A DNA stretch of 31,654 nucleotides from the UHGV virus genome UHGV-0150949. The stretch is one strand, 5' to 3'. Position numbers and translations under genes: made by a program. Position 1 is the first letter of the stretch. The number at the start of each line of letters is the position of its first letter. Under the pieces are notes generated by a model. That model searched no databases, was not told the origin of the DNA, and saw only the letters and a program-made list of their open reading frames with translations. Positions 2,109 to 25,405 of this stretch are shown one piece after another. The stretch comes from a virus.

Positions 2109-3267
2109 TGTGCCAGAACAATTTATCAGCGTGAAGCTCATACGCTTTGCGCTGAGCCTCTATCCAGTCGTGTTTATTGTATACTGACATTATCCCGCCA
2201 AGTTCATGACCGAGCATTCGCTCAGTAACATGAGGCTCGACATTCATCTCGGACAGACGTGTAACAAGCGTTCTTCTGAAATCATGTGTTCGCCAGTAAC
2301 CCAGATCCATCCCTCCCCTTATTCTATTTACGAATCGGTTGGCTGCAGCGATGCTGATCGGTTTGTTTATGTCTTCTCCAGGGAAAAGAACATCATTGTA
2401 CGTTGTCATGGCTTTTTCGAGAAAAGGCTTAATTTGTTCGAAGATTGGACGGCGGATAACATTACCCATCTTGCTATGCTCTTTCGGTACGGTCCATACG
2501 TTGTCCAGCAGGTCAAATTCTGTCTTTGTTGCCAGCCTAAGCTCTGAGAGCCTCGCCCCCCACAGCATAAGCATCTGATGAAGGAGCTTATTTGACGTAG
2601 ACGCACGGCTTCTTTCAATAGCAAGCCAAATCTTAGCCAGTTCGTGATACGACAGTACCCGATCCCCTACCTCAGCGCGGGAGCCGAAGTCCCTTGGTTG
2701 GATGCTCATAATTGCGCAACTATCTATCAACTGACGCCGCATGCACCAACTTATTGCTGATCTTAGTTGACTTAGCACCTGCCTTGCTCGGCGTGGATTA
2801 TCTCTTTCTTCTTCGGTAAGCAGGTCAACCCATTGCTTAACCGTGATAGAAGATGCCGGACGATTAGGAAAGGCGTCATGCATGCGCTTCATAACCGTTG
2901 ATCGGTAAAGTGCCTGGGTCTTTTCTCTGAGAGTTGTAGAGACGTAGTTGTCGAACCAGTAGTCGAGACACTGGGCGACCGTCATGGAGTTCTCCACCTT
3001 CTCTTCAAAATAGGTGCGTGGATCCGTTCCTGAGAAATAGAGCTTTCGCAAGTCAGCAGTGATCTGTCTGGCATCCTTCAAAGACAGGGATGGGTATCGA
3101 CCAAGCCCAAGTCGATTAGGCTTGCCATGCCAGCGATAGCGGTACTGGAACTGGATGACCCCCTTCGGTGAAATTCGTACGCTGAGGCCATCGGCATCAG
3201 CCACTTCTTGTGGGCCCGAATATGGTTTACCATAAATAGTACGCAGTTTTGTGTCGCTTATAGCCAT
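2089..3267 (-). CDS. int: tyrosine integrase, P4-type with N-terminal arm-binding (DUF4102-like) domain
   Basis: 392-aa ORF. N-terminus GLSVRISPKGVIQFQYRYRWHGKPNRLGLGRYPSLSLKDAR and C-terminal RTHDFRRT / HELGG catalytic-region motifs are typical of phage integrases. Confidence 0.93.
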   Translation of the reverse strand: MAISDTKLRTIYGKPYSGPQEVADADGLSVRISPKGVIQFQYRYRWHGKPNRLGLGRYPSLSLKDARQITADLRKLYFSGTDPRTYFEEKVENSMTVAQCLDYWFDNYVSTTLREKTQALYRSTVMKRMHDAFPNRPASSITVKQWVDLLTEEERDNPRRARQVLSQLRSAISWCMRRQLIDSCAIMSIQPRDFGSRAEVGDRVLSYHELAKIWLAIERSRASTSNKLLHQMLMLWGARLSELRLATKTEFDLLDNVWTVPKEHSKMGNVIRRPIFEQIKPFLEKAMTTYNDVLFPGEDINKPISIAAANRFVNRIRGGMDLGYWRTHDFRRTLVTRLSEMNVEPHVTERMLGHELGGIMSVYNKHDWIEAQRKAYELHADKLFWHIRSISD

Positions 3268-22193: not shown

Positions 22194-22666
22194 ACCTCAA
22201 TCTCTCTGACCGTTCCGCCAGCCTCTTTGAATTTTGCAATCAGGCTGTCAGCCTTATGCTCGAACTGACCATAACCAGCGCCCGGCAGTGAAGCCCAGAT
22301 ATTACTGCAACGGTCGATTGCCTGACGAATATCACCGCGGTCAATCATCGGTAAAGCACCACGCTCTTTAATCTGCTGCAATGCCACAGCGTCCTGGCTT
22401 TTCGGAGAGAAGTCTTTCAGTCCAAGCTGCTTGCGGTAGGCATCCCACCAACGGGAAAGAAGCTGGTAACGTCCGGCTGCTGTTGATTTGAGTTTTGGGT
22501 TTAGCGTGACAAGTTTGCGAGGGTGATCGGAGTAATCAGTGAATAGCTCTCCGCCAACAATGACGTCATAACCATGATTTCTGGTTTTCTGACGTCCGTT
22601 ATCAGTTCCCTCTGACCACGCCAGCATATCGAGGAACGCCTTACGTTGATTATTGATTTCCACCAT
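22190..22666 (-). CDS. R: endolysin, lambda R-type lytic transglycosylase
   Basis: 158 aa, near-identical to lambda R as recalled ([39 protein letters not shown]...). Confidence 0.95.
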
Positions 22667-22973
22667 CTTCTACTCCGGCTTTTTTAGCAGCGAAGCGTTT
22701 GATAAGCGAACCAATCGAGTCAGTACCGATGTAGCCGATGAACACGCTCGTTATATAAGCGAGATTGCTACTTAGTCCGGCGAAGTCGAGAAGGTCACGA
22801 ATGAACCAGGCGATAATGGCGCACATCGTTGCGTCGATTACTGTTTTTGTAAACGCACCGCCATTATATCTGCCGCGAAGGTACGCCATTGCAAACGCAA
22901 GGATTGCCCCGATGCCTTGTTCCTTTGCCGCGAGAATGGCGGCTAACAGGTCATGTTTTTCTGGCATCTTCAT
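22650..22973 (-). CDS. S: holin, lambda S-type with dual start (Met1-Lys2-Met3)
   Basis: 107 aa, near-identical to lambda S107/S105 as recalled ([39 protein letters not shown]...). Confidence 0.95.
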
Positions 22974-23485
22974 GTCTTACCCCCAATAAGGGGATTTGCT
23001 CTATTTAATTAGGAATAAGGTCGATTACTGATAGAACAAATCCAGGCTACTGTGTTTAGTAATCAGATTTGTTCGTGACCGATATGCACGGGCAAAACGG
23101 CAGGAGGTTGTTAGCGCAGCCTCTTGCCACCCGCTTTCACGAAGGTCATGTATAGAAGGCCGCAGCGTAACTATCACTGATGAGTTCAGGATAGCCAGTG
23201 GCTACGGCTCAGTTTGGGTGTGCTGTTACTGGGAGGCGATGACGCCTGTACGCATTTGTTGACCCGATTCTGCTTCCGGTATTCGCTTAATTCAGCACAA
23301 CGGAAGGAGCACTGTATGTTGCCGGGCCAGATGTCGGCTGCACAGGGAGTCATTGCCGACCCACGCCCTAAACACACTCGTAAATGCGCTTAGGGTTGTC
23401 TCCCCTGGTATCCAGTTATTCCCCGGCTGGGGATACTCCGCACGACGCTAATGCGTTTCGTCCCTCATGGGCTCGTCAGGCGCGC

Positions 23486-23504
23486 AATGCTCTTACCTGT
23501 TGTG
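23486..23504. repeat. 19-bp direct repeat, copy 1 (AATGCTCTTACCTGTTGTG)
   Basis: Exact 19-mer seen twice in the Q-S intergenic region, about 250 bp apart. Confidence 0.7.
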
Positions 23505-23673
23505 TGCCCATTATTAATCACACCGGGCCAGTGCGCCGAATTTGTTTACAAGGAGTCGGAAGACCTTGCTGACTTACAGGCTATTACGCCGCCATCAGAA
23601 CAACATCATCGTTTGCATTTATCTTTGTGGTCAGTTTCTAAAAAACCGCAAAGTCGCCAACTCTGACGAAAAC

Positions 23674-23697
23674 TATCGTTGTGCTGCCACAACGATA
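23674..23697 (-). terminator. perfect 10-bp hairpin, possible tR'-like late-leader terminator
   Basis: TATCGTTGTG-ctgc-CACAACGATA. On the - strand it is followed by GTTTTCG (weak U-tract). About 150 nt downstream of Q, where lambdoid phages place tR'. Confidence 0.3.
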
Positions 23698-23736
23698 AGA
23701 GCACTCGGTGCATTTAAGCCAAGCCCCATAAGGGAG

Positions 23737-23755
23737 AATGCTCTTACCTGTTGTG
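23737..23755. repeat. 19-bp direct repeat, copy 2 (AATGCTCTTACCTGTTGTG)
   Basis: Second exact copy, about 90 bp downstream of the Q stop. Confidence 0.7.
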
Positions 23756-23769
23756 CAAACAAAAAAAGC

Positions 23770-23847
23770 CACCGTTGCAACTTAAGAGTCACTAACGGCA
23801 GCTTATGCGAATAGTGTTGCTCATTTGCTCAATGATGTCAACACGTT
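23770..23847 (-). promoter_or_regulatory. expected location of late promoter PR' / qut
   Basis: TTGACA hexamer directly after the Q stop on the - strand. No convincing -10 found. Placement by analogy to lambda gene order. Confidence 0.3.
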
Positions 23848-24336
23848 CTATGCTACATGTTTAATTTTATCTACACGTTTCCGGTTTTTAAACGCACTAT
23901 CCAGAACCGGATAAATCATAAACAACGAGGCATTGAGGATTTCGTCAACTTCCCGGCGACAGGTTGCGAGCGATGGTTTTTGAATGCGCCCGCCGCCACG
24001 GCATAACATCTTGCGAGGTCTTGCGACACGATGATAGTAAGATGCAATGGCGTGCTTGGAAGATCCATGAGCGTAGTAGCTGAGGAGGATGCCAAAGGCT
24101 TTCTTGTCAATGTACATGACGGAATCGACGACCTGAGAAATCAACATTCCATCATCATCATTGCACATTGGCCTTGTCATAACTCTTCCCGGCTCTACGC
24201 TCTCCATGAACTTCGCTATTACGCTGCTCATGCGCTTTTCAAGACGACCTGAATAAACCCATGCTCCCCACAGTTCAAGCCAGCCATTCAGCCAATCGTG
24301 CTGCTCTTTGGTGAGGTTTAGTTCTCTTATGCTCAT
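23848..24336 (-). CDS. Q: late antiterminator Q
   Basis: 162 aa in the canonical position between the nin region and lysis genes. Cys/His-rich central region. Confidence 0.8.
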   Translation of the reverse strand: MSIRELNLTKEQHDWLNGWLELWGAWVYSGRLEKRMSSVIAKFMESVEPGRVMTRPMCNDDDGMLISQVVDSVMYIDKKAFGILLSYYAHGSSKHAIASYYHRVARPRKMLCRGGGRIQKPSLATCRREVDEILNASLFMIYPVLDSAFKNRKRVDKIKHVA

Positions 24337-24880: not shown

Positions 24881-25405
24881 TTATCCTCTCCCATGATTAT
24901 GGTGATACCCCAATCGTGATTCCGCCAATTTTCTGGCATTAACGGCTAGAGATATGTCATCGTATAATCCAAGAAATATCTTTTTATTATCACTGTTTAT
25001 ATATGCGCCCCACTTTTTATTCTTCTTATAGTAGGCAACCCCCATTACTCCAGAGCGATTATTAATAGGCTTTTTTCTGTTCCTTGAGTTCTGTTTATCA
25101 TCTACAACGCGCAAATTGCATATTCTGTTATCGCTTTTAACTCCATTTATGTGGTCAATTTCCCCATCAGGTTCACTTCCATAAAAGGATATCCATGCGA
25201 TTCTATGAGCTCGACAAACTTTTTTATTTACAGATATACGAACGTATCCTTTTTCATCTATAGAACCAGCAATCTTACCGGCATATGTTGAATTCCAGCA
25301 CTCTCTTACACTTTCTCTTCTCTTGTATATAAACAAACCTGTTTCGCTATTATATTCATACAATTCATTGATTTCTTTTTGTGTTGGATATCTTTTACCG
25401 TTCAT
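24881..25405 (-). CDS. HNH homing endonuclease with AP2-type DNA-binding domain
   Basis: 174 aa. HNH core (CRAHRIAW...IDHINGVKSDNRICNLR) and C-terminal AP2-like domain (SGVMGVAYYKKNKKWGAYI...). Markedly AT-rich compared with its neighbours. Confidence 0.85.
   Translation of the reverse strand: MNGKRYPTQKEINELYEYNSETGLFIYKRRESVRECWNSTYAGKIAGSIDEKGYVRISVNKKVCRAHRIAWISFYGSEPDGEIDHINGVKSDNRICNLRVVDDKQNSRNRKKPINNRSGVMGVAYYKKNKKWGAYINSDNKKIFLGLYDDISLAVNARKLAESRLGYHHNHGRG

What the first reader, a model, noticed from the sequence alone, without database searches (positions are those of the whole stretch)
22974..23847. Unusually long Q-S intergenic region with a 19-bp direct repeat and a perfect 10-bp hairpin
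The space between Q and the holin is about 870 bp, versus a few hundred in lambda. It contains no convincing ORF, no tRNA-like T-arm motif that I could find, and no toxin genes (the locus where Stx phages carry tRNAs and stx). It does contain two exact copies of AATGCTCTTACCTGTTGTG about 250 bp apart and a perfect 10-bp inverted repeat. This could be a duplicated PR'/qut element, a structured late leader or 6S-like RNA, or the footprint of a lost insertion.
Basis: seen in the sequence. Interest (0 to 1): 0.45.

Follow-up and report, generated by a model that had tools for sequence, protein, structure and literature searches.

The report
tmRNA-like RNA cassettes before phage holin
The gap between the phage's late-gene activator Q and its lysis genes is not a duplicated promoter or a scar: it carries inserted non-coding RNA cassettes, one encoding a tmRNA-style degradation-tag template with no tRNA-like half and one carrying a hammerhead self-cleaving ribozyme, each held in a conserved hairpin stalk whose 5' strand is the 19-bp repeat.

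Summary
The sequence features are real: an 874-bp Q-S gap, two exact 19-mers 251 bp apart and a perfect 10-bp hairpin. The gap is only about 200 bp longer than lambda's 676 bp. Late genes are on the minus strand.

The 19-mer (CACAACAGGUAAGAGCAUU) is the 5' strand of a roughly 17-bp stalk. This stalk brackets at least 45 different inserts in enterobacterial phages. Lambda has one copy just after tR'. This window has two stalk units with a 172-nt module between them.

The module has a tmRNA-like resume codon, a 10-codon tag ORF (ANDDVVLMAA**) and two covariation-supported pseudoknots. It has no acceptor stem or T-arm. Relatives are unannotated in 722 phage records and 656 of 5,426 complete E. 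coli genomes. All 84 distinct variants keep a 10-codon frame, A[N/K][D/E]xxx[L/M/R]x[A/V]A-stop.

The second stalk holds a type I hammerhead (invariant core, variable N7, covarying stems) and a pseudoknotted domain of about 125 nt with no Rfam match.

Best reading: a late-transcribed, processed array of RNA cassettes. The tag template is probably decoded during ribosome rescue. How it is coupled to an acceptor is unknown. No description of this RNA was found in the open-access papers searched.

The parts
23848..24336 (-). Q antiterminator gene (phage-21/Q21-type by my recollection; 162 aa)
   Evidence: ORF. PHROG 943 'anti-termination protein Q-like', E 5.8e-90.
23756..23847 (-). Q-proximal late promoter/terminator module. 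It holds a candidate -35 TTGACA at 23841..23836. The -10 and transcription start are not resolved.
   Evidence: Sequence. This 92-nt block is shared at 97.8% with O157:H7 genomes and ends exactly at the first 19-mer. The consensus scan did not call a promoter here.
23761..23803 (-). Intrinsic terminator (tR'-like): long G+C hairpin followed by U7
   Evidence: Hairpin in the MFE and centroid folds. The T7 run is at 23767..23761.
23737..23755 (-). Repeat copy 1, the 5' strand of stalk 1 (CACAACAGGUAAGAGCAUU)
   Evidence: It pairs with 23705..23688.
23706..23736 (-). Insert X(a), 31 nt (CUCCCUUAUGGGGCUUGGCUUAAAUGCACCG). This is a recurrent cassette of unknown function.
   Evidence: The same insert sits in stalks of Klebsiella phage MK54 and FelixO1, where the stalk sequence itself covaries. 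It is among the commonest insert types.
23688..23705 (-). 3' strand of stalk 1 (AGUGCUCUUAUCGUUGUG)
   Evidence: window unit 1.
23674..23697 (-). The 'perfect 10-bp hairpin'. It is a junction hairpin formed by the end of stalk 1 (UAUCGUUGUG), a GCAG loop and CACAACGAUA, which leads into the tmRNA-like module.
   Evidence: The same GUUGUG-GCNR-CACAAC junction occurs in L047. It is absent from most relatives, so it is not part of the conserved module.
23506..23677 (-). tmRNA-like tag-template module without a tRNA-like domain. In order: 5' GAUAGUUUUCG, a hairpin, the resume context, the tag ORF, helix 5 and two pseudoknots.
   Evidence: 722 phage records match by blastn. Structure covariation is and ORF conservation.
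23581..23616 (-). Tag reading frame: resume codon GCA at 23616..23614, ANDDVVLMAA, then UAA UAG
   Evidence: alignment; all 84 variants have 10 codons, with 20 different peptides.
23536..23568 (-). Pseudoknot PK2. The hairpin is CAAGG/CCUUG, and its loop CCGA pairs with the downstream UCGG.
   Evidence: helices 4 and 5: 98.6% and 98.3% of cells paired. All four pairs of the pseudoknot helix show changes on both sides.
23506..23535 (-). Pseudoknot PK3: CGCACU/GGUGUG interleaved with GCCC/GGGC, with conserved loop AUUAAUAAU
   Evidence: RNAalifold. helices 6 and 7: 98.1% and 88.4% paired, with covariation.
23486..23504 (-). Repeat copy 2, the 5' strand of stalk 2
   Evidence: It pairs with 23313..23296.
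23439..23484 (-). Type I hammerhead ribozyme candidate. Predicted cleavage is after GUC, between C23444 and G23443.
   Evidence: Rfam HH9 alignment at 15.3 bits, below the cut-off. Homologues keep CUGA-N-GA...GAAA...GU[C/A] with N7 = C/A/U, and stems II and III covary.
23314..23443 (-). Conserved pseudoknotted domain of about 125 nt, 3' of the hammerhead cleavage site. Function unknown; no Rfam match.
   Evidence: 98.6% of cells paired against 32-47% in slid controls. 18 of 44 pairs have compensatory changes.
23296..23313 (-). 3' strand of stalk 2 (AGUGCUCCUUCCGUUGUG). Lambda homology resumes here.
   Evidence: The lambda match begins at query position 534, which is window 23314.
22974..23295 (-). 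Lambda-like late leader upstream of S. It includes a second conserved helix, GUUGUGCUG...CAGCACA.
   Evidence: 95% identity to lambda 44844-45185.
22650..22973 (-). Holin S (107 aa), followed by R and Rz
   Evidence: The equivalent gene in related prophages is annotated 'phage holin, lambda family'.

Best explanation
The Q-S spacer is a late-transcribed array of non-coding RNA cassettes built on the lambda late leader.

Transcription from the Q-controlled late promoter would read through the terminator at 23803..23761 into the array. This step is inferred from lambda biology.

The array contains two copies of a conserved stalk of about 17 bp. Its 5' strand is the 19-bp repeat and its 3' strand is AGUGCUCUUUCCGUUGUG. 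Each stalk presents a different insert. The stalks most likely insulate the folding of each insert and serve as processing sites that cut the array into separate small RNAs. I suggest RNase III-type cleavage of a long, irregular helix. The second stalk also has its own hammerhead cut. All of the processing is inferred.

Between the stalks sits a 172-nt RNA derived from tmRNA. It keeps the resume context, a 10-codon degradation-tag frame (ANDDVVLMAA), helix 5 and two pseudoknots. It has no acceptor stem or T-arm. All of this is shown by the sequence and by comparison with relatives.

The frame, its Ala-Asn-Asp start, its hydrophobic-Ala end and an in-frame stop are kept through many nucleotide changes. 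I therefore conclude that the frame is decoded. The most likely role is as an alternative tag template during ribosome rescue late in infection, with alanyl-acceptor function supplied by something outside the module. That last step is inferred and its mechanism is unknown.
For: Mosaic structure:
- Query positions 1-92 match Q21-type phages.
- Positions 534-874 match lambda at 95%.
- The middle part is also found behind lambda-type Q/tR' in other prophages.

Stalk:
- Lambda has a single 19-mer immediately after tR', followed by a 39-nt insert and the complementary strand.
- I found 118 stalk units, 78 of them unique, carrying at least 45 insert types of 31-213 nt.
- Every stalk pair is 95-100% paired, and compensatory changes occur (GC to UA 7 times; AU to GC, CG or UA).
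- The FelixO1 and Faunus stalks differ in sequence but still pair.

Module distribution:
- 722 phage records from unrelated families carry it (Deseoctovirus-like, N4-like, FelixO1-like and Ackermannviridae phages, P1, Erwinia phages). It always lies in unannotated spacers, often beside tRNAs and in the same orientation as them.
- 656 of 5,426 E. coli genomes have a match.

Module boundaries: the 5' end is fixed by independent contexts. These are a TTGACA-17-TAGATT promoter ending 8 nt upstream in phage C1 and a terminator directly upstream in P1.

Structure: 90.7% of cells pair against 41-49% in slid controls. There are 131 compensatory cells against 22-35. No shuffle out of 500 reached any of the five measures.

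Coding signal:
- 84 of 84 distinct variants have exactly 10 codons, giving 20 peptides.
- Codons 1 and 10 are always Ala. Codon 10 uses all four Ala codons.
- UAA, UAG and UGA are all used as the stop.
- The third position varies in all 10 codons, the first and second in 5-6.
- The other two frames are not conserved.

tmRNA relationship: Rfam tmRNA_permuted and beta_tmRNA align the resume and tag region. That region also resembles bona fide permuted tmRNAs in other viral contigs, as seen in the alignment.

Hammerhead.
Against: - No expression or processing data exist for this locus. RNase III cleavage and read-through are inferred.
- The module lacks everything needed for aminoacylation. ARAGORN and Rfam find no tRNA-like domain in the window, there is no T-loop motif, and the complete genome of phage C1 carries the module with no tRNA or tRNA-like domain anywhere. 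No known mechanism lets a free tag template enter trans-translation.
- The module shows no special complementarity to host ssrA (130 of 200 shuffles did as well).
- All Rfam scores are below the gathering cut-offs (26-33 against 47 bits; 15 against 52 bits).
- The helix upstream of the resume codon is only weakly supported (83.6% paired, one compensatory pair).
- Part of the ORF lies in helix 5, so some codon conservation could be structural.
- The hammerhead has a bulged stem II and no evident loop-loop contact, so it may be slow.
Confidence: 0.6

Rival explanations
1. The tmRNA-like module is a non-translated mimic of the mRNA-like and pseudoknot part of tmRNA. It would act as a decoy or sponge, titrating a factor that binds that part (for example ribosomal protein S1, RNase R or SmpB contacts near the resume codon), or diverting a host nuclease, and so dampen or protect trans-translation during infection.
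For: It has no tRNA-like domain, so it cannot be charged. It is autonomous and moves between unrelated phages without a fixed protein partner. A tRNA-like-domain-only RNA in mycobacteriophage DS6A has been discussed as an inhibitor acting by titrating SmpB (PMC4131195).
Against: A pure mimic does not need an open frame. Yet 84 of 84 variants keep exactly 10 codons, an in-frame stop written three ways, and a final Ala written four ways. The middle residues vary freely.
Confidence: 0.2
2. The module makes a free decapeptide (ANDDVVLMAA) by structure-driven, initiator-independent initiation at the Ala codon. The free degron-like peptide would compete for ClpXP/SspB and similar proteases.
For: Peptide-level conservation without a tRNA-like domain. 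A structured element sits just upstream of the GCA codon (helix 1). There is no SD or AUG in frame (sequence).
Against: No precedent exists in bacteria or phages. The upstream helix has weak covariation support. A 10-aa peptide would need very high levels to compete.
Confidence: 0.07
3. The extra sequence is functionless hitch-hiking DNA. The 19-mers are short 'boundary' homologies at which lambdoid modules recombine, and the tmRNA-like piece is a decaying fragment of a phage two-piece tmRNA or of a picked-up ssrA.
For: The region is a mosaic with junctions exactly at the 19-mers. Boundary sequences are annotated in this spacer in phage CUS-3. ssrA fragments in prophages are known (PMC9004378).
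Against: A decaying fragment would not keep an intact frame in 84 of 84 variants. It would not show compensatory changes in four helices across phage families with as little as 72% identity. It would not carry its own strong promoter in virulent phages. The tags differ from the host tag ANDENYALAA, so it is not a recent ssrA pick-up.
Confidence: 0.08
4. One reading: a duplicated pR'/qut element, or a 6S-like RNA.
For: The direct repeat lies downstream of Q, and there is a terminator-like hairpin at 23698..23673.
Against: Neither repeat copy is associated with promoter hexamers. The 19-mer lies downstream of tR' in lambda as well. It always pairs with a complementary strand around variable inserts. 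The hairpin is absent in most relatives.
Confidence: 0.02

Closest known systems
tmRNA (SsrA), one-piece, e.g. E. coli ssrA
   Same: A-rich resume context followed by GCA. A 10-codon tag beginning A-N-D and ending in small hydrophobic residues plus Ala. The stop codon lies in a helix-5-like hairpin. H-type pseudoknots follow the frame.
   Different: There is no acceptor stem, G3:U70 pair, CCA end or T-arm. The RNA is about 172 nt against 363 nt, with two rather than three downstream pseudoknots. The tags differ from the host's ANDENYALAA. All tmRNA family scores are below the cut-offs.
Two-piece (permuted) tmRNAs, including phage-encoded ones (e.g. methylophage Melnitz, PMC9004378; viral contigs L021 and L049 here)
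   Same: A coding RNA that is a separate molecule from the acceptor RNA. The resume and tag region looks similar in the alignment, and the tags are related (ANDERFLMAA, ANDNAFLMAA). Both are phage-borne.
   Different: In true two-piece tmRNAs the coding piece starts with the 5' acceptor strand, and an acceptor piece (T-arm, 3' strand, CCA) is encoded just upstream. Here neither exists in the window or in a complete phage genome that carries the module.
tRNA-like-domain-only tmRNA of mycobacteriophage DS6A (PMC4131195)
   Same: A phage carrying only half of a tmRNA.
   Different: It is the opposite half. DS6A keeps the tRNA-like domain, and this element keeps the mRNA-like and pseudoknot part.
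Hammerhead ribozymes in prophages (Perreault et al. 2011, PMC3088659)
   Same: The full catalytic core and three stems, in a non-coding spacer of a prophage. The proposed role is processing of long phage transcripts.
   Different: It is below Rfam thresholds. It is fused to a conserved 125-nt pseudoknotted domain, enclosed in the stalk, and in large phages sits between tRNA genes.
tRNA genes and toxin genes inserted between Q and S in Stx and other lambdoid phages; lambda 6S RNA/tR'
   Same: The same insertion hot-spot just downstream of the late terminator. Related prophages carry tRNA-Thr or tRNA-Asn at this position.
   Different: The cargo here is neither tRNA nor protein-coding.
RNase III processing stalks flanking rRNAs and T7 early mRNAs (my recollection of established knowledge)
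   Same: Long irregular helices formed by sequences that flank a functional RNA in a polycistronic transcript.
   Different: Cleavage has not been shown here. The same stalk sequence is reused for dozens of different inserts across phage families.

Membership tests
tmRNA (SsrA) | Tag reading frame with no start codon or SD, beginning at an Ala resume codon and ending at a stop, and encoding a proteolysis tag | tested here: met
   GCA...UAA UAG gives ANDDVVLMAA. All 84 variants have 10 codons with the pattern A[N/K][D/E]xxx[L/M/R]x[A/V]A.
tmRNA (SsrA) | Pseudoknots flanking the mRNA-like region | tested here: met
   Two downstream H-type pseudoknots have 88-99% pairing and compensatory changes. 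The upstream element is only a weakly supported hairpin.
tmRNA (SsrA) | tRNA-like domain: a 7-bp acceptor stem with G3:U70, discriminator and CCA | tested here: not met
   ARAGORN finds none. The 5' end is set by a promoter or a terminator directly upstream. Closure by the flanking stalk strands is rejected by non-covariation.
tmRNA (SsrA) | T-arm with a T-loop | tested here: not met
   No GTTCRA-type motif occurs in the spacer on either strand. The terminal hairpin position is occupied by a pseudoknot with a 9-14-nt loop.
tmRNA (SsrA) | Score at or above the curated Rfam gathering threshold | tested here: not met
   tmRNA_permuted scores 26.3 bits (cut-off 47) and beta_tmRNA 17.2 bits (cut-off 84). 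The best relative scores 33.1 bits.
tmRNA (SsrA) | Alanylation, SmpB binding and tagging of stalled nascent chains | not testable with these tools
   This needs biochemistry or mass spectrometry.
Two-piece (permuted) tmRNA | An acceptor piece (T-arm, 3' acceptor strand, CCA) encoded upstream of a coding piece that begins with the 5' acceptor strand | tested here: not met
   Present in L021 and L049. Absent here and in the complete phage C1 genome. The one ARAGORN 'permuted' call, in FelixO1-like L223, joins pieces of ordinary tRNA genes 570 nt away.
Hammerhead ribozyme (type I) | Conserved core C3-U4-G5-A6-N7-G8-A9 ... G12-A13-A14 ... cleavage site N16.1-H17 | tested here: met
   The window has CUGACGA...GAAA...GUC. 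In 11 homologues the core is invariant, N7 is C, A or U, and H17 is C or A.
Hammerhead ribozyme (type I) | Three helices around the core, with stems II and III closed and stem I open, supported by covariation | tested here: met
   Stems I, II and III are 100%, 92.5% and 100% paired. There are compensatory changes in stems II and III. More divergent L237, L239 and L247 show fully different stems.
Hammerhead ribozyme (type I) | Score at or above the Rfam gathering threshold | tested here: not met
   Hammerhead_HH9 scores 15.3 bits against a cut-off of 52. The E-value of 0.33 applies only to a 221-nt search.
Hammerhead ribozyme (type I) | Self-cleavage | not testable with these tools
   An in vitro transcription and cleavage assay is needed.
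tRNA gene cluster (as in Stx-phage Q-S spacers) | Cloverleaf tRNA detectable by ARAGORN or Rfam | tested here: not met
Duplicated pR'/qut late promoter | A second set of promoter hexamers and a Q-binding or pause element at the repeat | tested here: not met
   There are no promoter-like hexamers at either repeat. The repeat is downstream of tR' in lambda as well.

The most novel reading that the evidence does not exclude
Enterobacterial phages of many families (lambda-like, P22-like, P1, T1-like relatives, N4-like, FelixO1-like, Vi1-like) share an unrecognised 'stalk-and-cassette' system of small RNAs. Its commonest cassette would be a free-standing tag-template RNA, in effect a tmRNA with no tRNA half. 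Phages would use it to hijack the host's ribosome-rescue machinery and rewrite the degradation tag put on stalled proteins. That would be a new kind of split trans-translation, in which template and acceptor are unlinked.
Probability: 0.3. Interest if true: 0.9.

Novelty: new variant of a known kind. Interest (0 to 1): 0.78.

Why it matters
tmRNA is defined by the union of a tRNA-like and an mRNA-like part. This RNA keeps only the tag template, is under clear coding-type selection, and is unannotated in 722 phage records and 656 of 5,426 complete E. coli genomes. It would therefore either reveal a new way of feeding a template into ribosome rescue, or a new viral strategy for manipulating host protein quality control.

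The question is directly testable. One can look for proteins ending in the phage tag in induced lysogens.

The analysis also shows that a stretch of phage lambda's own late leader belongs to a modular RNA-stalk system that carries dozens of different structured inserts. One of these is a hammerhead-linked domain with no Rfam match. This gives a concrete entry point into non-coding cargo that phage annotation pipelines currently miss.

Tried and rejected
1. tRNA or tmRNA gene in the spacer or elsewhere in the window: none found by ARAGORN, Rfam or a T-arm regex.
2. One-piece tmRNA closed by the flanking stalk strands (upstream AGUGCUC... with downstream ...GAGCAUU, which would give a G:U near position 3). 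I rejected this for three reasons. Where the downstream strand is changed (L129-type AAGCUGCUU, L150-type AUAAUUGCAUU), the upstream strand stays canonical and the strand beyond the insert covaries. Many modules lack a downstream stalk. In phage C1, MK54, FelixO1-like phages and P1, a promoter or a terminator abuts the module.
3. An acceptor piece encoded next to the module or elsewhere in the phage: none in the complete phage C1 genome. T-arm-containing inserts occur in only some arrays. The odd tRNA-like gene after the FelixO1 unit (G3:U70, anticodon loop UCU) is replaced by a normal tRNA-Arg in relatives.
4. Pairing of the module with host ssrA: duplex energy -92.7 against a shuffled mean of -94.8, so no signal.
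5. Protein-coding explanation: the ORFs in the inserted part have no PHROG match. The alternative AUG frame is not conserved.
6. Intact ancestors in bacterial genomes: the pattern scan of 185,579 species genomes gave only four true hits (Pseudocitrobacter, Rouxiella, Erwinia, Pantoea), all with the same tRNA-domain-less form.
7. Literature: searches for the tag strings, 'tmRNA-like' with phage, phage tmRNA and tmRNA with the relevant phage genera found no description. The P1 genome paper could not be read.
8. The first 14-mer scan of viral contigs was too unspecific, and most hits were unrelated. Incidentally it brought in genuine permuted tmRNAs.
9. My first register for one helix of the hammerhead-linked domain was off by one and was corrected.
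Full report
**Orientation and check of the observation**

The phage late genes lie on the minus strand.
- Q, a 162-aa anti-termination protein Q-like (PHROG 943, E 6e-90), is at 24336..23848.
- Holin S is at 22973..22650, followed by R and Rz.
- The spacer is therefore 22974-23847, 874 bp.
- The two exact 19-mers (23486-23504 and 23737-23755, 251 bp apart) and the perfect 10-bp inverted repeat (23674-23683 / 23688-23697) are all present. Both are far beyond chance for 874 bp.
- ARAGORN finds no tRNA or tmRNA in the whole window. Rfam finds nothing at curated thresholds.
- The ORFs in the inserted part have no PHROG match.

The one overstated element is the length. Lambda's own Q-S spacer is 676 bp. 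Related prophages with lambda-type Q have about 1,060 bp.

**The spacer is a mosaic**

Coordinates here are read 5'->3' on the minus strand.
- The first 92 nt (23847..23756) match Q21-type phages of E. coli O157:H7. They contain a TTGACA hexamer and a strong hairpin plus U7 terminator.
- The last 341 nt (23314..22974) are 95% identical to lambda 44844-45185.
- The middle 441 nt are absent from lambda. They occur, wholly or in part, behind lambda-type Q and tR' in other E. coli prophages.
- In lambda the 19-mer CACAACAGGTAAGAGCATT occurs once, immediately after the tR' U-run. It is followed by a 39-nt insert and then by AGTGCTCTTTCCGTTGTG, which is its imperfect complement.

**What the 19-bp repeat is**

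Across the phage and viral loci I collected, the 19-mer is always followed, after a variable insert, by that complementary strand.
- I found 118 such units, 78 of them unique, with at least 45 different insert types of 31-213 nt.
- Every position of the helix is 95-100% paired. Compensatory changes occur (GC to UA seven times; AU to GC, CG or UA).
- In FelixO1 and in Erwinia phage Faunus the stalk sequence is different but still pairs around the same kind of insert.

So the repeat is the 5' strand of a conserved stalk of about 17 bp (6 bp, a bulged A, 2 bp, a U-U mismatch, 9 bp) that presents cassettes.

This window has two stalk units.
- Unit 1 is 23755..23688. It carries a 31-nt insert that also occurs in Klebsiella phage MK54 and FelixO1.
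- Unit 2 is 23504..23296. It carries a 172-nt insert.

The 'perfect hairpin' is only the junction between the end of stalk 1 (…UAUCGUUGUG), a GCAG loop, and CACAACGAUA leading into the next module. Most relatives lack it.

I infer that the stalks insulate the folding of each insert and act as processing sites in a polycistronic RNA. The analogy is with the RNase III stalks that flank rRNAs and T7 early mRNAs, which I cite from established knowledge. Cleavage has not been shown here. The reuse of one stalk around dozens of inserts, with mosaic junctions exactly at the stalk strands, also suggests that the conserved flanks allow cassettes to be exchanged by recombination.

**The module between the stalks (23677..23506)**

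Rfam's permissive search aligned 23638..23584 to the tag region of tmRNA families: tmRNA_permuted at 26.3 bits and beta_tmRNA at 17.2 bits, both below their cut-offs. The sequence reads AUAAAU-GCA AAC GAU GAU GUU GUU CUG AUG GCG GCG UAA UAG, which translates to ANDDVVLMAA followed by two stops.

*Distribution*
- A blastn search with the module finds 722 phage records from unrelated groups: Deseoctovirus-like siphophages, N4-like Gamaleyavirus, FelixO1-like phages, Ackermannviridae, P1 and Erwinia phages.
- It always lies in unannotated spacers, often inside or beside tRNA arrays and in the same orientation as the tRNAs.
- It is present in 656 of 5,426 complete E. coli genomes, mostly on P1-like plasmids. 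It is full-length in 137 genomes and never annotated in the rows listed.
- Among one-per-species bacterial genomes, only four Enterobacterales carry it.

*Coding signal*

I extracted 84 distinct versions from two viral-contig scans.
- All 84 have exactly ten codons from the resume codon to a stop.
- There are 33 distinct nucleotide versions and 20 different peptides, fitting A-[N/K]-[D/E]-x-x-x-[L/M/R]-x-[A/V]-A.
- Codon 10 is always Ala and uses all four Ala codons.
- The stop is UAA, UAG or UGA.
- Third positions vary in all ten codons; first and second positions vary in five or six.
- The other two frames are not conserved.

This pattern is what is expected of a decoded tmRNA tag. The host tag is ANDENYALAA.

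*Structure*

On a 43-sequence alignment the proposed structure is 90.7% paired, against 41-49% when partners are slid. It has 131 compensatory cells against 22-35. No shuffle out of 500 reaches any measure. The structure consists of:
- a helix-5-like hairpin holding the stop codon;
- pseudoknot PK2, a hairpin CAAGG/CCUUG whose loop CCGA pairs with the downstream UCGG;
- pseudoknot PK3, CGCACU/GGUGUG interleaved with GCCC/GGGC (also seen).

The resume and tag region resembles genuine permuted tmRNAs found in other viral contigs in the alignment (tags ANDERFLMAA and ANDNAFLMAA).

**What the module lacks**

It has no acceptor stem, no G3:U70 pair, no CCA end and no T-arm.
- The 5' boundary is fixed at (GAUA)GUUUUCG by independent contexts. 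In phage C1 a TTGACA-17-TAGATT promoter ends 8 nt upstream; the same promoter-like sequence precedes the module in MK54 and FelixO1-like loci by eye. In P1 a terminator lies directly upstream.
- The flanking stalk strands cannot substitute as an acceptor stem. Where the downstream strand has changed, the upstream one has not. Many modules have no downstream stalk at all.
- The window has no T-loop motif in the spacer and no tRNA-like hit anywhere.
- The complete 46.7-kb genome of phage C1 carries the module with its own promoter but no tRNA or tRNA-like domain.
- The module shows no special complementarity to host ssrA.

It therefore fails the defining tRNA-like features of tmRNA while meeting the mRNA-like ones. 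I file it as a tmRNA-derived variant, not as a tmRNA.

**The second stalk's insert (23485..23314)**

It begins with GCGCGC-CUGACGAG-CCCAUGAGGGA-CGAAAC-GCAUUAGC-GUC-GUGCGG. Rfam aligns this to Hammerhead_HH9 at only 15.3 bits. Homologues give much stronger evidence.

*Where the homologues are*
- In T7-like Enterobacter phage EhYP, between the capsid and tail-tubular genes.
- In Dickeya phage Setonix, just upstream of a tRNA.
- In large uncultured phages, between tRNA genes.
- In other lambdoid prophages.

*What they show*
- They keep CUGA-N-GA ... GAAA ... GU(C/A) invariant.
- N7 is C, A or U.
- Stem II changes from CCC/GGG to UUC/GGA or UCUU/AAGA.
- Stem III changes from CGC/GCG to UAC/GUG or CCC/GGG.

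RNAalifold recovers the three-way junction unaided.

The ribozyme is fused to a conserved domain of about 125 nt with a long-range helix, three hairpins and a pseudoknot. The whole insert is 98.6% paired against 32-47% in slid controls, with 18 of 44 pairs showing compensatory changes.

Predicted cleavage is between C23444 and G23443. That would free the downstream domain with a 5'-OH end. Hammerheads that flank genes in prophages, proposed to process long phage transcripts, are known (PMC3088659). The linked domain has no Rfam match.

**How it most likely works**

*Shown*
- The mosaic architecture.
- The stalk pairing.
- The module's frame and pseudoknots.
- The hammerhead core and stems.
- The absence of a tRNA-like domain.

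*Inferred*
- Q-modified RNA polymerase reads through the terminator at 23803..23761 into the array, as at lambda tR'.
- The stalks and the hammerhead cut the leader into separate small RNAs.
- The tag template is decoded on stalled ribosomes late in infection, with the acceptor function supplied from outside the module.

The last step has no known mechanism. That is the main weakness of the explanation and the main reason the element is interesting.

The leading rival is a non-translated decoy of the mRNA-like part of tmRNA. It explains the missing tRNA half but not the strictly kept frame. A free-peptide model and a 'dead fragment' model are less likely, for the reasons given under rivals.

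**Comparison with what is known, and novelty**

Phage-encoded tmRNAs are known.
- A 2014 census found them in mycobacteriophages and Bacillus phage G, including one that is tRNA-like-domain-only (PMC4131195).
- An ARAGORN survey found tmRNAs in 2.3% of phage genomes. Many of the two-piece ones were in marine phages (PMC9004378).

I found no description of a tag-template-only RNA, of these tag sequences, or of the stalk system in the searchable literature. That library covers open-access papers only.

ARAGORN occasionally reports a 'permuted tmRNA' in FelixO1-like genomes by joining this frame to pieces of distant tRNA genes. Some genome records may therefore carry a misleading tmRNA label.

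I rate the element a new variant of a known kind. It is of high interest because of its abundance, the clear coding-type selection, and the direct experimental test it allows.

Noticed in passing
window 23314-23443 (minus strand); also L233, L234, L238, L239, L243, L247: The domain of about 125 nt downstream of the hammerhead cleavage site is a conserved, pseudoknotted RNA with invariant single-stranded stretches (GGAGUAUCCC, GGGGAAUAACUGGAUACCAG, GCGUGGGU, UGCAGC). It has no Rfam match. In large phages it sits between tRNA genes, and in a T7-like phage between the capsid and tail-tubular genes.
   Followed up: partly
L132 (lambda J02459) about 44795-45000: Phage lambda's own late leader, directly after tR', contains one stalk unit (19-mer, 39-nt insert, complementary strand). 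It also has a second conserved helix, GUUGUGCUG...CAGCACAAC, that covaries with GUUGUGGUG...CACCACAAC in other phages. Phage C1 carries the same 39-nt insert as lambda.
   Followed up: partly
L008 (phage PhaxI) 1300-1950; L006 (IME11) 2900-3110: Long non-coding arrays around the module contain several tRNA-like pieces (T-arm plus acceptor-like 3' strand, some ending in CCA). Neither ARAGORN nor Rfam calls them as tRNAs.
   Followed up: no
L007 (FelixO1) 1694-1772: An odd tRNA-like gene sits right after the stalk unit. It has the acceptor CGGGGCG/CGCCUCG with G3:U70, A73 and an encoded CCA, plus an anticodon-like loop CUUCUAA (UCU). It has no D-arm and a long variable region. It scores 31.7 bits as tRNA in Rfam and is not called by ARAGORN. 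Relatives have a normal tRNA-Arg(UCU) at this position.
   Followed up: partly
L015, L017, L021, L023, L032, L034, L043, L049 and others (viral contigs): About 25 of the 120 viral contigs fetched with the 14-mer ATAAATGCAAACGA carry genuine permuted (two-piece) tmRNA genes by ARAGORN. Their tags include ANDNFAPSELALAA, ANESVYRLAA and ANDERFLMAA.
   Followed up: partly
L223 c[1824,2572]: ARAGORN reports a 749-nt 'permuted tmRNA' with tag ANDNVFLAVA** in a FelixO1-like contig. It does so by joining the module's frame to fragments of ordinary tRNA genes about 570 nt upstream. This is likely a source of misleading tmRNA annotations.
   Followed up: yes
L233 (Dickeya phage Setonix) about 1150-1420: Here the 3' strand of the helix enclosing the hammerhead cassette overlaps the 5' acceptor strand of a tRNA (anticodon CAU). 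This hints that the stalk strands may derive from, or compete with, tRNA acceptor ends.
   Followed up: no
window 23025-23177 (minus strand): A 50-aa ORF in the lambda-like leader just upstream of S matches PHROG 22751 (unknown function, E 3e-28). It overlaps conserved leader sequence, so it may be an annotation artefact or a small late protein.
   Followed up: no
window 24881-25405 (minus strand): A 174-aa ORF lies between a 96-aa ORF and a 120-aa ORF in the nin region. By eye it looks like an HNH-type homing endonuclease with a DNA-binding repeat, and so a probable selfish insertion. The 96-aa and 120-aa neighbours resemble the DUF1364 and RusA genes of related prophages, but I did not test them here.
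   Followed up: no
stalk 3' strand in many loci (e.g. L079, L102, L039): In most lambdoid prophage contexts the stalk's 3' strand is followed by U-CCA. The module then starts at the very next base (…AGUGCUCUU-U-CCA|GUUUUCG). This gives a tRNA-like 3' end abutting the module's fixed 5' end, and its significance is unknown.
   Followed up: partly
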